A stretch of 64,000 nt of DNA from an uncultured bacterium. GTDB taxonomy: Bacteria; Actinomycetota; Acidimicrobiia; Spongiisociales; UBA5794. The notes under the pieces are model-generated. The model made no database searches. It was not told the origin of the DNA and was given only the letters and a program-made list of their open reading frames with translations. Shown piece by piece: positions 27,148-29,701 of the stretch; positions within the stretch are counted from its first letter, which is position 1, and each line of letters begins with the position of its first letter. Location: NCBI GenBank assembly GCA_963801165.1, contig CAWDDT010000004.1, positions 224,001-288,000 of the forward strand, read 5' to 3'. The translations under genes were made by a program, and so were the position numbers.

Positions 27148-29217
27148 TCAAACGCGTTCGAGCTCGACTGTGGTGGGTACCGAAGTGGCCCCGGGCTTGC
27201 GATACGCCGGGAGAGCAAAGTCGAAAGCGGTCCAGCCGCCGCGTCTGCGATAGGAGAGATCACCGTCCATCAGCCTGGCGAGCATTCTCGAGATCGCGAG
27301 CCCGAGCCCGAGAGAGCCGGGCTGGGTTCCCGGGTTGTGGGCGCTCTCATAGGGCGCAAAGATACGCTCCTGATCATCAGCGGGGATGCCGTCGCCGTTG
27401 TCGCTGACGGTGAGGTGAGTCGTATGCCCCTCCACCGATATGGCGATCTCGATTTCCGTGCCGCCGTAGCGCTGGGCATTTGTGACGAGGTTGCGAAGTA
27501 TCTGGCGGACACGGCCCTCGTCGGCGAACACGGTCGTCTTCTCACCCGTGACAGTGATGTGGTGGCCTGCATCGACAGTGGTGTCTACGACGCGGGACAC
27601 GAGCGGGTCGAGCGCTACGGGCGCGGGGACGATCGTCAGCGATCCCATGCGGGCCCTGGCGGCCGTGAGGAGATCCTCTACGAGGTCGGCGAGATCGCCT
27701 GCCTCCGCGGCGATCGACCGCAACATGGCGTCCTCGTCCTCGCTGCTGAACTCTCCACGGTGGTCTCGCAGCATCTCCGCGAAGCCGAGCACGCCCGTCA
27801 GCGGTGTTCTCAGCTCGTGGCTGACGGCGGCGATCAGCTGGTCCTTGGACCGGATCAGGTCCTGCTTCGAGGCGATCTCAGTGTGCAGCTGCTCGATGAC
27901 TCGCGCTCGTTCCAGGGTGAGGCTGGCGTGGTTGGCGATCGTGTCGAGCAGTTCGAGCTCGGTCGGTGAGAACCGTTTTGCCACGCCGGTACGCCCGGTG
28001 ACCATGAGCACTCCAATGCTGCCCGCCCCATGTTTGACGGGGGCGATCATCCCACAGGAGGCGGTGTGGGCACCGAGCGCGATCCGCAGCCTGCTGGCGT
28101 GGTTCTCAGGGCCGAAACGTCGCTCGGGCTTTGGCCCGATGGCGATCCGGTGGAGCTCGTCGACATCGTCAACGGGAATCTGACGTTGTGCCGGGTCCTG
28201 GCCCGCAGAGAACCCGAGGTAGCTGGCGTGCGACTCGGCCGGGTCCGACAGGATGATCTCGCCGTGTTCTGCCCTGAGAATGGAAACCGCCTCTCGCAGA
28301 GTGACTACGGCGATGTCTCTTGCGCCGAGTGTGCCGTCTACCTGGTTGGTGAATGAGTAGAGCGACCGGAGATCGTCGTGTCGCAGGCTGAGCTGGCCAA
28401 ACGACCGGAACAGCATGAAGAAGAACGCCATCATCACCCCGAGCAGCACCAGGGCCCGGGGCTGGAAGTGGATGATCACGACCGTGATTGTTCCGAGGAA
28501 GCCGACGGCGACGCTGATCAACGAGCCCACCGCAAACGACCGGACGATATCGCGCAGTCTGCGGCGACGGTCGTTGAGAGCGATGACGACGTCGACCATT
28601 GCGGCAGACACCGTTACGGCCACGCCGATCGCGATCATGGCGGCGAGCCAGCCAGCGGGTTCCCACGGTTGTGACGCACCGAGGATGTACCGGTATACGA
28701 CCAACGCCACTGTGGTCTCGAGCGTGAACAGCGACAGATTGAAAGTCAGCTTGAGGAGGGGTTGGCGGCGCAACGTCAACACGGCGACCCCGGCGATGAT
28801 CCTGGCGAAGACGACGACAGGCGGCGGGGCGAGCGCCAGCCCGATTACGAGCGGAATCTCGCTCATCGAGATCGTGTGCGAGTCGCGCTGCACCGGGAGG
28901 TGGACGAACAGGCTCTCCGCGACGGCAAAGCCTATCGCCAGCACCCACCAGGCCGTGTAGCCCGTCACGCCGTCCGGGGTGTCGAACCGCAGCAGGATGT
29001 TGAACCCGAGCATGGTGGCCACCAGCATGACTGCGGTCATGATCGGAACGGCCCAGACAACGTGATGGGGACGAGTTGCGTCGGCGACCTCCTTCATGAC
29101 GGGCGACGGCTCGGGGTGGGCACCGTCGGTGGCCGGAGGGCCGAAGAACGATGCCACCGCCGAGTTGTTGTCTAGTACCGGGGTCTCGGGCGTGCCGGGA
29201 CCCGGCGAGGAGCTCAC
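27148..29217 (-). CDS. Orphan sensor histidine kinase: polytopic membrane sensor (about 7-8 TM) + GAF + HisKA + HATPase
   Basis: Hydrophobic N-terminal half, GAF-like [41 protein letters not shown] start chosen by SD GGAGG. Confidence 0.9.
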
Positions 29218-29253
29218 CGTGGAACCTCCGTCAGGAGCAGGACTGTCACCCCT

Positions 29254-29282
29254 TCTTCGGCATTCGTATCTGATGAACTTGA
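29254..29282 (-). promoter_or_regulatory. sigma28 (FliA/WhiG)-like promoter for the kinase
   Basis: Minus strand TCAAG-N16-GCCGAAGA. Confidence 0.65.
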
Positions 29283-29339
29283 CATCATTTCGGAGGTTGG
29301 CGCGGGTACTAGTCCCGGCGGCATCGTCACATATGACCC

Positions 29340-29368
29340 TCAAGGATTGCAGCCGCGATTGCCGATTC
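29340..29368 (+). promoter_or_regulatory. sigma28 (FliA/WhiG)-like promoter for the small peptide gene
   Basis: TCAAG-N16-GCCGATTC. Confidence 0.65.
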
Positions 29369-29403
29369 GGAAGGGACACTCTCGATCACTGGAGGTTGCA
29401 CGG

Positions 29404-29664
29404 ATGCTGACCACGAGCGTTTTGCCCTGGCTCCGCGACCGGCGTCTCGTCGCTCTGCTTGCCGCTGTCGCACTTGTTGCGTCCCTGGCCCTCGCCATCA
29501 TCGGCAACAGCTGGACGACGAACGCCGCGCCCGCCGACCCCACGACACCGACCGTGGAGGAGGAGGTCGTAGCCGGTCCTTCATGGACTATGTCGGCGAG
29601 AGTGGCCGGACAGGCTTTGACCCCGGTATCCACAACGTCCGTGCTGGTGGGTTCCTGGAGCTGA
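29404..29664 (+). CDS. 86-aa secreted/membrane-anchored peptide with repeated G-(x)-S-W-[ST] motifs (candidate signal precursor)
   Basis: SD GGAGG at 29391-29395, RDRR + hydrophobic stretch, motifs GNSWT, GPSWT and terminal GSWS; downstream hairpin. Confidence 0.75.
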   Translation: MLTTSVLPWLRDRRLVALLAAVALVASLALAIIGNSWTTNAAPADPTTPTVEEEVVAGPSWTMSARVAGQALTPVSTTSVLVGSWS

Positions 29665-29670
29665 AACAAC

Positions 29671-29701
29671 GCGATGCGGCCGGGTCGACCTGCCGCATCG
29701 C
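29671..29701 (+). terminator. GC-rich hairpin directly after the peptide gene
   Basis: GCGATGCGGC-N11-GCCGCATCGC; no strong U-tract. Confidence 0.6.

What the first reader, a model, noticed from the sequence alone, without database searches (positions are those of the whole stretch)
27148..29701. Candidate peptide-signal/receptor system: secreted G-(x)-S-W-[ST] repeat peptide divergent from a polytopic membrane histidine kinase
Seen: the 86-aa ORF (29404-29664) has an SD, a basic-plus-hydrophobic export/anchor segment and its own downstream hairpin. It carries three Ser-Trp cassettes, each preceded by aliphatic residues: IIGNSWT, VVAGPSWT, and VLVGSWS at the exact C-terminus, separated by low-complexity spacers. 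It is head-to-head with an orphan kinase whose input is about 7-8 TM helices ([15 protein letters not shown]....[12 protein letters not shown]) plus a GAF domain. Both genes have matching TCAAG-N16-GCCGA promoters. Established: Gram-positive peptide quorum sensing (AgrD/AgrC, ComC/ComD, ComX/ComP) pairs a small exported precursor with a multi-TM kinase. Inference: the ORF is a multi-core pheromone precursor that releases short SW peptides sensed by the membrane domain; it matches none of those named families. Unverified recollection: similar membrane domains occur on actinobacterial GGDEF/EAL proteins beside subtilisin-like proteases with GxSWS-repeat tails, which would make this a wider family and suggest a processing enzyme.
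Basis: partly seen in the sequence, partly recalled or inferred. Interest (0 to 1): 0.88.

Follow-up and report, generated by a model that had tools for sequence, protein, structure and literature searches.

The report
Small Trp-motif protein beside sensor kinase
A small exported protein with a repeated Gly-x-Ser-Trp motif is conserved next to a membrane sensor kinase, and the same motif forms long tails on secreted proteases beside related sensors across actinobacteria, which suggests an undescribed signal-receptor pairing.

Summary
The 86-aa ORF (29404-29664) is a real gene. Its Shine-Dalgarno site, start and reading frame are conserved, and dN/dS is 0.08-0.40. The AGxSW[ST] motif is kept in 15 of 16 homologues and a C-terminal GxSW[SGT]-stop in 13 of 16. 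The ORF lies divergent from orthologues of the kinase in three genera.

The kinase input is an 8-helix membrane domain with no Pfam match. It is linked to MASE9 only through intermediate proteins. Its predicted fold matches ECF-transporter S-components (Z 14.6).

In this genome, an S8 protease with a (GVSWS)n tail sits directly upstream of a paralogous membrane-domain-GAF-GGDEF-EAL gene. Of 90 sensor loci in the order, 36 have a neighbour carrying the W-pentapeptide, against 21 of 1006 control windows. The pairing also occurs elsewhere in the phylum and with kinase, GGDEF and GGDEF-EAL outputs. None of 20 canonical MASE9 loci has such a neighbour.

Best reading (0.5): the SW-motif proteins are the extracytoplasmic partner or ligand source of this sensor domain. 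Peptide release and quorum sensing are untested. The link is not obligatory: only 11 of 26 W-array loci adjoin a sensor. My literature searches found no description of this pairing.

The parts
29404..29664 (+). Small ORF of 86 aa: an exported or membrane-anchored protein with three G-x-S-W-[ST] cassettes
   Evidence: GC3 is 0.77. dN/dS is 0.08-0.40 in 14 pairs.
29391..29395 (+). Shine-Dalgarno GGAGG. The block GGAGGTTGCACGG before the start codon is invariant in 6 of 6 orthologous loci.
29434..29502 (+). Basic RDRR followed by a hydrophobic helix of about 20 residues: a signal peptide or an N-terminal anchor
   Evidence: Cleavage was not predicted with a dedicated tool.
29497..29517 (+). Cassette 1, IIGNSWT. 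It is invariant within the genus and absent in G134, G135 and G029. A conserved A-x-A/AP site follows it.
29566..29589 (+). Cassette 2, VVAGPSWT. The AGxSW[ST] motif is kept in 15 of 16 homologues.
29641..29661 (+). Cassette 3, VLVGSWS, at the exact C-terminus. GxSW[SGT]-stop is kept in 13 of 16 homologues.
29671..29701 (+). G+C-rich hairpin after the stop codon, with no T-run
   Evidence: It was not found by the consensus scan.
29340..29366 (+). TCAAG-N16-GCCGAT promoter-like motif upstream of the small ORF
29257..29282 (-). The same motif, TCAAG-N16-GCCGA, upstream of the kinase
29308..29313 (.). Invariant ACTAGT between the two promoter-like motifs. Most orthologues carry CTAGTCCG-ACTAGTCC here. 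It is a possible operator.
27148..29217 (-). Sensor histidine kinase. The likely start is GTG 29217 (689 aa). The longest ORF reaches 29379.
28345..29097 (-). 8-helix membrane input domain. It is MASE9-related and has an ECF S-component-like core.
27910..28320 (-). GAF domain
27649..27846 (-). HisKA domain. The H-box SHELRTPL is present.
27205..27522 (-). HATPase_c domain
29763..30449 (+). Nitroreductase-family gene. It is context only: it is syntenic within the genus but absent at the G134 and G029 loci.

Best explanation
The 86-aa ORF encodes a conserved exported, or N-terminally anchored, small protein. Its G-x-S-W-[ST] units, one of them at the extreme C-terminus, make it the extracytoplasmic partner of the divergently encoded sensor kinase.

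The partner could act in one of two ways. It could be a tethered modulator, or it could be the source of short Trp-containing peptides.

The kinase senses through an 8-helix membrane domain. This domain is MASE9-related and has an ECF S-component-like core, a fold that in transporters forms a small-ligand pocket within the membrane. Occupancy of the domain would be relayed through the GAF domain to HisKA/HATPase autophosphorylation.

The pair is the minimal form of a module found across the phylum. In that module the same sensor domain is fused to a kinase, GGDEF or GGDEF-EAL output and is encoded beside a secreted protein carrying the same pentapeptide. That protein is usually an S8 subtilase with 8-20 tandem G-x-[ST]-W-S units.

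Shown here: the gene is real, the motifs are conserved, the genomic coupling exists, and the fold is as described. Inferred: export, a physical interaction, and any proteolytic release (for example cleavage after Trp by the subtilase).
For: 1. The gene is real.
- The Shine-Dalgarno site, start codon and frame are conserved in 6 of 6 same-genus loci.
- dN/dS is 0.08-0.40 in 14 of 14 computable pairs.
- The 16 distinct homologues come from genomes, metagenomes and the protein database.

2. The motifs are conserved.
- AGxSW[ST] is kept in 15 of 16 homologues.
- A C-terminal GxSW[SGT]-stop is kept in 13 of 16.

3. The ORF is coupled to the kinase.
- It is divergent from kinase orthologues in 6 of 6 same-genus loci, in G134 and in G029.
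- In G134 and G029 the other flanking genes differ.
- It is also divergent from a kinase in 4 of 5 metagenome contigs. The fifth contig is cut.
- Both genes carry the same conserved TCAAG-N16-GCCGA motif.

4. A second form of the same coupling exists.
- In this genome, C3:3877-5694 is an S8 protease with a 15-nt tandem (GVSWS)n array. It lies directly upstream of a membrane-domain paralogue followed by GAF-GGDEF-EAL.

5. Survey of sensor loci in the order.
- 36 of 90 loci hold an ORF with two or more G.[SETDN]W[STG] motifs, or one ending in GxSW[STG]. 30 of 90 hold an ORF with three or more motifs.
- In this genome the control figures are 21 of 1006 and 3 of 1006 windows of 4.5 kb.

6. Sample of the phylum.
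- 16 of 29 non-own loci are positive, or 14 of 24 without the unpublished genomes.
- As a specificity control, 0 of 20 best canonical MASE9 loci are positive.

7. The shared element is the membrane domain.
- Ten S8-paired sensors carry HisKA/HATPase (6), GGDEF (1) or GGDEF-EAL (3).

8. Phylogeny.
- Sensors partnered with a small ORF form one 10-row clade (SH-aLRT 89). That clade is nested among sensors paired with S8 tails (quick tree).

9. Fold.
- The AF2 model of the domain has pLDDT 86.4 and pTM 0.83.
- The top 15 of 48,161 chains are all ECF S-components, with Z 14.6-10.2. The next unrelated hit scores 8.4. Foldseek gives the same family.

10. The S8 partners have signal peptides.
Against: - There is no experimental or expression evidence of any kind.
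- The coupling is not obligatory. 54 of 90 sensor loci show no W-neighbour within the flank, though some are cut by contig ends.
- In the reciprocal test only 11 of 26 true W-array loci adjoin a sensor. Eight have it inside the flank and three more are adjacent by coordinates.
- 4 of 12 kinases related to the small-ORF clade lack the ORF: L045, L046, L047 and L050.
- The G135 homologue lies beside a Zn-peptidase gene, not beside a sensor.
- The C-terminal cassette is lost in 3 of 16 homologues, and cassette 1 is restricted to the genus.
- In the unbiased pattern sample only 10 of 26 tails end in W-x-stop. In the sensor-anchored sample the figure was 15 of 17.
- S-components bind small molecules inside the membrane. 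The authors who defined MASE9 argue for ligand binding within the membrane and note poorly conserved periplasmic loops (passages). It is unclear how a protein-borne motif would reach such a site unless it is released.
- The genomes are related, so the counts overstate how many independent events there are.
Confidence: 0.5

Rival explanations
1. The ORF is a multi-core pheromone precursor. Short SW peptides are cut out, diffuse between cells and report cell density to the kinase, as in Agr/Com-like quorum sensing.
For: - The motifs are conserved and the ORF is coupled to the kinase.
- The S8 partners could supply the processing enzyme.
- Tails often end in W plus one residue. That would leave a P1' residue for cleavage after Trp.
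- The S-component-like pocket suits a small ligand.
Against: - No response regulator, maturation/export gene or HPK10-type kinase is present at the locus.
- Cassette 1 may lie in the signal peptide, and cassette 3 is dispensable in 3 of 16 homologues.
- The spacers between cassettes are not conserved cleavage sites.
- Nothing shows release or diffusion.
- Many sensors of the family control c-di-GMP rather than transcription.
Confidence: 0.15
2. The W-pentapeptide units anchor proteins to the envelope or cell wall, or form a structural repeat such as a pentapeptide-type solenoid. The sensors sit nearby only because both belong to one envelope regulon, or because the sensor responds to the protease's activity on the envelope. 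The membrane domain does not bind the motif.
For: - 15 of 26 W-array loci are not next to a sensor, and some genomes carry tandem families of W-tail proteases.
- The unit A-S-W-S-G resembles the pentapeptide-repeat consensus, which I recall rather than looked up. PF00805 gives sub-threshold hits on two tails (E 0.05 and 0.064, 13-14 bits against a cut-off of 20.2).
- The shared promoter-like motif also precedes several genes for secreted proteins and an ECF-like sigma gene in this genome.
Against: - The small protein has isolated cassettes, not arrayed ones, so it cannot form a solenoid.
- Adjacency is tight: in 22 of 25 loci the S8 gene is directly upstream on the same strand.
- Adjacency holds across three output types and is absent at canonical MASE9 loci.
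- The small ORF and kinase stay together where the other flanking genes differ.
Confidence: 0.2
3. The small protein is a substrate or decoy of the W-tail subtilase. G-x-S-W would then be the protease's recognition site, and the protease's own tail would be an autoprocessed or autoinhibitory extension. The kinase would be regulated indirectly by regulated proteolysis of its small partner.
For: - The same unit occurs in the protease tail and in the small protein within one genome. In G135 the unit GNSWS appears in both.
- Tails end with W plus one residue in most sensor-adjacent cases.
Against: - No protease gene is at the kinase locus in the window.
- The specificity of these S8 enzymes is unknown.
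- Profile comparison finds no homology between the small protein and the S8 proteins beyond the signal peptide (probability 3%).
Confidence: 0.1
4. The ORF is not a gene, or the motif is a chance or compositional feature of G+C-rich intergenic DNA.
For: - GC2 is rather high for a coding region, at 0.60.
- No RNA data are available.
Against: - The frame, start codon and Shine-Dalgarno site are conserved.
- dN/dS is below 0.4.
- The motifs are invariant across homologues that are only 30-66% identical.
- The motif is rare across the genome.
Confidence: 0.02

Closest known systems
MASE9 membrane-associated sensor domain (Pfam PF20972; Galperin and Chou, bioRxiv 10.1101/2021.11.05.467447; passages read)
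   Same: - It has 8 predicted membrane helices, including a short hairpin-like pair after helix 2.
- Conserved polar residues lie within the membrane.
- It fuses to many signalling outputs: GGDEF-EAL, GAF and kinases.
- At least 10 places in other genomes are matched both by PF20972 above its cut-off and by my profile of this domain, at E 1e-15 to 1e-21.
- The protein-atlas feature search also points to MASE9 clusters.
   Different: - PF20972 does not match the window's domain or either paralogue in this genome, even at E up to 10.
- No ligand or partner is known for MASE9, according to the passages read.
- Canonical MASE9 loci lack W-pentapeptide neighbours (0 of 20).
- This looks like a separate, GAF-linked branch.
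ECF-transporter S-components (RibU, ThiT, FolT, BioY, CbiM/NikM, PanT, BtuM)
   Same: - The predicted fold of model residues 42-215 matches. RibU gives Z 14.6, rmsd 3.2 Å, with 161 of 170 residues aligned.
- All of the top 15 hits belong to this family. Foldseek gives TM-score 0.69 on the target.
   Different: - No sequence family match was found.
- The domain has an extra helix at each end.
- It is fused to GAF and a signalling output.
- I did not examine whether EcfT or EcfA genes are associated. Fold likeness does not show a shared function.
Gram-positive peptide quorum sensing (AgrD/AgrC, ComC/ComD, ComX/ComP); features recalled, not looked up here
   Same: A small exported precursor is encoded beside a polytopic membrane histidine kinase.
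   Different: - The locus has no response regulator and no maturation/export gene such as AgrB, ComAB or ComQ.
- The kinase has HisKA (PF00512) rather than an HPK10-type core.
- The precursor matches none of those families.
Small membrane proteins that modulate histidine kinases (MgrB-PhoQ, SafA-PhoQ); recalled, not looked up here
   Same: A small single-pass membrane protein is encoded near a sensor kinase and could act on it within or at the membrane.
   Different: - There is no sequence relation.
- The conserved part here is the extracytoplasmic G-x-S-W motif, which is shared with secreted proteases, not the membrane helix.
Pentapeptide-repeat proteins (Pfam PF00805)
   Same: The tails have a five-residue periodicity, with a small residue, an aromatic residue, Ser and Gly per unit.
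   Different: - Matches to the S8 tails are sub-threshold only.
- The AF2 model of an S8 protein gives the tail pLDDT 24-31 with no structure, but the whole model is weak (mean 50.4).
- The small protein has isolated units, not an array.

Membership tests
Two-component sensor histidine kinase (HisKA + HATPase_c) | HisKA dimerisation/phospho-acceptor domain with an H-box, and an HATPase_c catalytic domain | tested here: met
   PF00512 matches at E 6.9e-17 and PF02518 at E 2.7e-23. SHELRTPL is present in the translation.
Two-component sensor histidine kinase (HisKA + HATPase_c) | A cognate response regulator encoded nearby | tested here: not met
   No Response_reg domain was found among the ORFs scanned between 22775 and 34900. 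The nearest response regulator, at 20664-21374, has its own HAMP kinase.
MASE9 (PF20972) | A match to the Pfam model above its cut-off of 24.3 bits | tested here: not met
   There is no match at E up to 10, either on the domain alone or anywhere in this genome.
MASE9 (PF20972) | Eight membrane segments, two of them short and forming an intramembrane hairpin, with conserved polar residues in the membrane (as described in the passages) | tested here: met
   The AF2 model has 8 helices, and a short helix plus a two-strand hairpin at residues 50-76. W50, E61, H74, S77, E80, R110, K116, F119 and N120 are nearly invariant. The depth of the hairpin in the membrane was not computed.
MASE9 (PF20972) | Homology shown through intermediate sequences | tested here: met
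   At least 10 places, for example G479:C38, G465:C10, G530:C13 and G548:C82, are matched by both PF20972 and profile A5.
ECF-transporter S-component | The six-helix S-component fold | tested here: met
   Z 14.6-10.2 for 15 S-components, with the next unrelated hit at 8.4.
ECF-transporter S-component | Works with an EcfT/EcfAA' module as a transporter, and matches a sequence family | tested here: inconclusive
   No Pfam or NCBIfam S-component family matches. The domain is fused to GAF and a kinase. ECF module genes were not searched for.
Agr/Com-type peptide quorum-sensing systems | A precursor of a known family, a dedicated maturation/export gene and a response regulator in the same locus | tested here: not met
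   The small ORF matches 0 Pfam families, and its NCBIfam matches are only chance-level. The neighbours are Nudix, DUF480, a nitroreductase, a PAS kinase and TldD/PmbA.
RiPP precursor with a tailoring enzyme | A conserved modifying enzyme (YcaO, radical SAM, lanthipeptide synthetase, P450 and the like) adjacent across homologues | tested here: not met
   The only enzyme adjacent in the same direction is a nitroreductase-family gene. It is syntenic within the genus but absent at the G134, G029 and G135 loci.
Pentapeptide-repeat family (PF00805) | A Pfam match above the 20.2-bit cut-off, or a tandem five-residue array | tested here: not met
   The small ORF has no match and only isolated units. 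S8 tails score 13.3-13.6 bits.
Proposed module: SW-pentapeptide protein plus MASE9-like/GAF sensor | A secreted protein with G-x-[ST]-W-[ST] units encoded next to a gene with this membrane domain | tested here: met
   For the window. For the paralogous locus in this genome.

The most novel reading that the evidence does not exclude
MASE9-like sensor domains with an ECF S-component-like fold are receptors for short Trp-terminated peptides of the form (x-)G-x-S-W. Dedicated secreted S8 subtilases would cut these peptides out of their own tandem-repeat tails, or out of small precursor proteins like this ORF. That would be a previously unrecognised peptide-signalling system of Actinomycetota. It would feed into both histidine-kinase and c-di-GMP outputs, and it would give the first ligand for a MASE-type membrane sensor.
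Probability: 0.2. Interest if true: 0.9.

Novelty: new variant of a known kind. Interest (0 to 1): 0.78.

Why it matters
Membrane-embedded MASE-type sensor domains are common on bacterial kinases and c-di-GMP enzymes. The passages I read name no ligand for MASE9, and from recall few MASE-type domains have a known signal.

This work links one large branch to a specific, easily synthesised sequence unit on secreted neighbour proteins. The branch has 2126 representative clusters at E up to 1e-3 and was found in 92 of 401 sampled Actinomycetota genomes. The work also links it to a fold known for binding small ligands within the membrane.

That turns an open question, what these sensors sense, into direct bench tests with peptides, a protease and a reconstituted sensor. 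It also explains a conspicuous but unannotated tandem repeat on actinobacterial subtilases, one that often breaks metagenome assemblies.

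Tried and rejected
Complex prediction. I ran the membrane domain (alignment A5) with the small protein (alignment A1). The score was 0.01 against a mark of 0.32. The tool's verdict is 'no answer', so this is neither support nor evidence against binding.

AF2 model of a complete S8 protein with its tail (A6, 11 rows). Mean pLDDT was 50.4 and the tail scored 24-31. The model is too weak to say whether the tail is folded or disordered.

Expression. No RNA holder was listed for window 28900-29900; all 17 rows are DNA from soil, salt-marsh or wetland metagenomes.

Consensus promoter and terminator scan of 29000-29900. It found 0 sigma-70-like promoters and 0 T-run terminators.

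Profile comparison of the small proteins with the S8 proteins. Only the signal peptides aligned (probability 3%). By eye, the C-terminal VDFFGPSWG resembles the QDIFGNxW that opens the S8 arrays, but this has no statistical support.

Weak small-ORF matches. Those in G143, G103, G030, G057, G046, G015, G006, G027 and G025 lie inside long ORFs or contain stop codons. The two I read (G143, G103) lack the motifs. I set all of these aside as spurious. The weak G048 match (a 75-aa frame) and the second G005 match (1 stop) were set aside unread.

Long 'open frames' of 985-1240 aa at some sensor loci. These are stop-free G+C-rich upstream DNA, not N-terminal fusions.

Literature.
- A search on the motif strings GASWS, GVSWS, GTSWS, GNSWS, SWSGASWS and GPSWT found 24 papers. 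Of the 20 listed, none is relevant.
- A search on subtilisin, diguanylate cyclase, tryptophan-rich and Actinobacteria found 12 papers. None describes the pairing, judging from listings and abstract starts only.
- A search on S-component, ECF transporter, sensor domain, diguanylate cyclase and histidine kinase found 0 papers.
- A search on MASE6-9 found one relevant preprint, of which I read passages. Its supplementary Figure S5 could not be seen and may bear on how close this domain is to MASE9.
- 'Not in print' rests on these four searches only.

The tree is the quick tree. The careful search did not finish in 288 s. The root is at the midpoint.

Full report
**What is at the coordinates**

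The window comes from an Acidimicrobiia metagenome-assembled genome of 4.55 Mb with 65% G+C. The class name rests on the titles of relatives.

The 86-aa ORF (29404-29664, + strand) has GGAGG 8 nt before its ATG. It has an RDRR-plus-hydrophobic N-terminus and three Ser-Trp cassettes: IIGNSWT, VVAGPSWT and VLVGSWS. The last cassette is at the exact C-terminus. A G+C-rich hairpin follows at 29671-29701 (-24.9 kcal/mol, z = -3.4).

The divergent kinase ORF is 27148-29379. Frame-specific G+C, a GGAGG-spaced GTG at 29217 and a 690-aa nearest homologue put the start at 29217, giving 689 aa. The kinase has about 8 membrane helices, then GAF, HisKA and HATPase_c.

No response regulator lies among the ORFs scanned between 22775 and 34900. 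The downstream nitroreductase most likely starts at GTG 29763, so it does not overlap the small ORF.

**Is the small ORF a gene?**

Yes. Six other genomes of the genus hold it at the same place. The Shine-Dalgarno block GGAGGTTGCACGG before the start codon is invariant, and the frame is open in all. Pairwise dN/dS is 0.08-0.40 in 14 of 14 computable pairs, although dS is often saturated.

A profile search of 133 genomes of the family gave 11 matches. Seven are in the genus. Two more are real distant homologues (G134, G135), and two I judged spurious. A further homologue turned up beside the kinase orthologue of G029.

The protein database added two sequences. Metagenome contigs added five loci. 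One of these is 98% identical to the window's protein, and one repeats the G004 sequence.

Over 16 distinct sequences:
- AGxSW[ST] is kept in 15. G029 has AAEWT instead.
- A C-terminal GxSW[SGT]-stop is kept in 13. It is lost in G005, P0002 and L222.
- NSWT is kept in 13. It is missing in the three genera outside the window's own.

NSWT sits just before a conserved A-x-A/AP site. It may therefore be the c-region of a signal peptide. I had no signal-peptide predictor.

**Coupling to the kinase**

The small ORF is divergent from a kinase orthologue in the following loci:
- 6 of 6 same-genus loci
- G134, at 46% identity
- G029
- 4 of 5 metagenome contigs, the fifth being cut

In G134 and G029 the nitroreductase and PAS kinase seen in the window are not there. 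The pair therefore persists while its surroundings change.

There are results against a strict coupling. Kinase orthologues in G013, G010 and G120, and the related kinase in G023, have no such ORF. The G135 homologue lies after a Zn-peptidase gene.

Both genes carry TCAAG-N16-GCCGA(T), invariant in 6 of 6 orthologous intergenic regions. An invariant ACTAGT lies between the two copies.

**The membrane domain**

The domain has no Pfam or NCBIfam match. It nevertheless defines a large family: 2126 representative clusters at E up to 1e-3 and 1173 at E up to 1e-10. In a sample of 75 of the best 150, 42 carry GGDEF, 31 EAL, 35 GAF_2 and 10 HisKA/HATPase.

A language-model search pointed to MASE9. 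PF20972 does not match this genome at all. It does match, above its cut-off, at least 10 places in other actinobacterial genomes that my profile A5 also matches at E 1e-15 to 1e-21. The domain is therefore a separate branch related to MASE9.

The defining preprint describes 8 segments with an intramembrane hairpin. It proposes ligand binding within the membrane and names no known ligand (passages).

The AF2 model (pLDDT 86.4, pTM 0.83) has 8 helices and a short hairpin after helix 2. Residues 42-215 match ECF-transporter S-components. The 15 best of 48,161 chains are all S-components (Z 14.6-10.2), and the next hit scores 8.4. Foldseek agrees.

**The wider pattern**

In this genome only three genes carry the domain.
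- One is the window's kinase.
- The second (C3:2604-3920, followed by GAF-GGDEF-EAL in another frame) lies directly after an S8 protease. That protease's C-terminus is a 15-nt tandem array encoding (GVSWS)n and ends in ...EWQ-stop.
- The third (C7) has no such neighbour.

I then examined 90 loci of the domain in the order. Thirty came with 1.5-kb flanks. Sixty I fetched with about 3.5 kb on the N-terminal side, taking the first 60 unfetched rows. Of the 205 matches, 55 were never listed.

Of the 90 loci, 36 hold an ORF with two or more G.[SETDN]W[STG] motifs or one ending in GxSW[STG]. Thirty hold an ORF with three or more motifs. The same test on this genome gives 21 of 1006 and 3 of 1006 windows of 4.5 kb.

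The neighbours are mostly secreted S8 subtilases of 580-680 aa with 8-20 units. In 22 of 25 cases in the second set they lie directly upstream on the same strand. Three are divergent. Several contigs end inside the arrays, so the counts are probably too low.

One locus (G402) has another small secreted ORF whose mature part is little more than GASWSGASWSSRGVSWS.

In a sample of the phylum, 92 of 401 genomes have the domain. Of the 29 best non-own loci, 16 have W-pentapeptide neighbours, or 14 of 24 without the five loci from unpublished genomes. None of the 20 best canonical MASE9 loci does.

Ten S8-paired sensors that I read in full carry HisKA/HATPase (6), GGDEF (1) or GGDEF-EAL (3). The constant element is therefore the membrane domain, usually with GAF.

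On a quick tree the sensors partnered with small ORFs form one 10-row clade (SH-aLRT 89), nested among S8-paired sensors.

**Limits of the association**

I ran the test in the other direction with a degenerate DNA pattern for W-S-G-x-S-W-S-G-x-S-W. It matches 41 of 151 genomes of the order, while the reversed control pattern is rare.

Of 30 loci, one per genome, 26 hold true arrays. The sensor domain lies inside the 1.5-kb flank in 8 of these. By coordinates it is adjacent in 3 more. Fifteen arrays are not next to a sensor, though some sit on short contigs. One genome (G064) has an array but showed no domain match.

Tails end in W plus one residue in 15 of 17 sensor-anchored cases, but in only 10 of 26 in this unbiased sample. 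Seven of those ten are among the 11 sensor-adjacent loci, but this split was made after seeing the data.

The genomes are related, so none of these counts is a count of independent events.

**Mechanism**

Shown:
- a conserved small gene with a conserved short motif
- tight and specific genomic coupling of that motif to one membrane sensor domain, across outputs and lineages
- an S-component-like predicted fold

Inferred: the motif-bearing proteins act on the sensor's membrane domain from outside the cell.

I rate direct partnership at 0.5. Within it, the form I favour slightly is release of short Trp-containing peptides, possibly by cleavage after Trp, which many subtilisins prefer (recalled). 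That form fits a small pocket within the membrane and the W-plus-one C-termini. A tethered-modulator form is equally compatible with the data.

The strict quorum-sensing reading (0.15), an envelope-anchor or co-regulation reading (0.2) and a protease-substrate reading (0.1) remain open.

**Known relatives and novelty**

The kinase core is ordinary. The input domain is a MASE9-related branch that Pfam does not capture. The system works like a receptor with a genetically linked extracytoplasmic ligand or accessory protein, which is a known kind. It is not a member of the Agr, Com or RiPP families.

My four literature searches found no description of W-pentapeptide tails, of their pairing with these sensors, or of the S-component likeness.

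I file it as a new variant of a known kind. A bolder reading, a new peptide-signalling system that gives the first ligand for a MASE-type domain, I put at about 0.2.

Noticed in passing
window 29257-29282 (-) and 29340-29366 (+); G000 C4:~105801-106397 (-) (locus L220); other G000 sites listed: The motif TCAAG-N15/16-GCCGAT lies 100 nt or less upstream of several ORFs with signal peptides in this genome. It also lies upstream of a 186-198-aa sigma-70 region 2 + region 4 (ECF-like) gene. The kinase and small ORF may therefore belong to an autoregulated alternative-sigma regulon of secreted proteins. The GCCGAT element also recalls sigma-28/WhiG -10 boxes, though this is from memory and the spacing differs.
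   Followed up: partly
G000 C3:1289-5721 (locus L038): The S8 repeat array changes reading frame inside the 15-nt tandem array. The adjacent sensor is split between two frames: membrane domain at 2604-3920 and GAF-GGDEF-EAL at 1289-2989. These are either assembly errors in repeats or real frameshifts. The locus is at the start of a contig.
   Followed up: partly
L007 / L053 (G008:C486): The kinase begins at about residue 227 and abuts the small ORF at about residue 13. This is either a deletion that removes both 5' ends and the intergenic region, or a chimeric assembly. The genome has 1030 contigs.
   Followed up: no
L097, L098, L105, L106, L117; G173:C1, G165:C62: Contigs of metagenome-assembled genomes often end inside W-pentapeptide arrays. 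These genes are probably under-assembled and under-annotated.
   Followed up: no
G168:C5:50772-54909; G164:C58; G165:C62; G060:C108: Some genomes carry two or three W-tail S8-like genes in tandem, about 1.9 kb apart. In one genus these end in ...WDHGKRIR, and they have no sensor within the fetched flank.
   Followed up: no
G000 C6:574245-576629: A 794-aa protein with a signal peptide ends in a Gly/Ser/Trp-rich low-complexity tail (GSWGGGSSWGGGSWS...SSW-stop). It is a different kind of W-containing tail and is not next to a sensor.
   Followed up: no
L031 (G135:C5) and L097 (G135:C83): In G135 the small protein's two cassettes (AGNSWS, MGNSWS-stop) use the same unit, GNSWS, as the tandem tail of that genome's S8 protease beside its only sensor of this family. 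This may be chance, or it may reflect matching within a genome.
   Followed up: no
window 30371-32062 (+): A second orphan kinase (PAS-HisKA-HATPase) follows the nitroreductase. It is syntenic in 5 of the 6 same-genus loci (none matched in G005's locus L002), and in G010 it lies directly opposite the first kinase, without the small ORF or the nitroreductase.
   Followed up: partly
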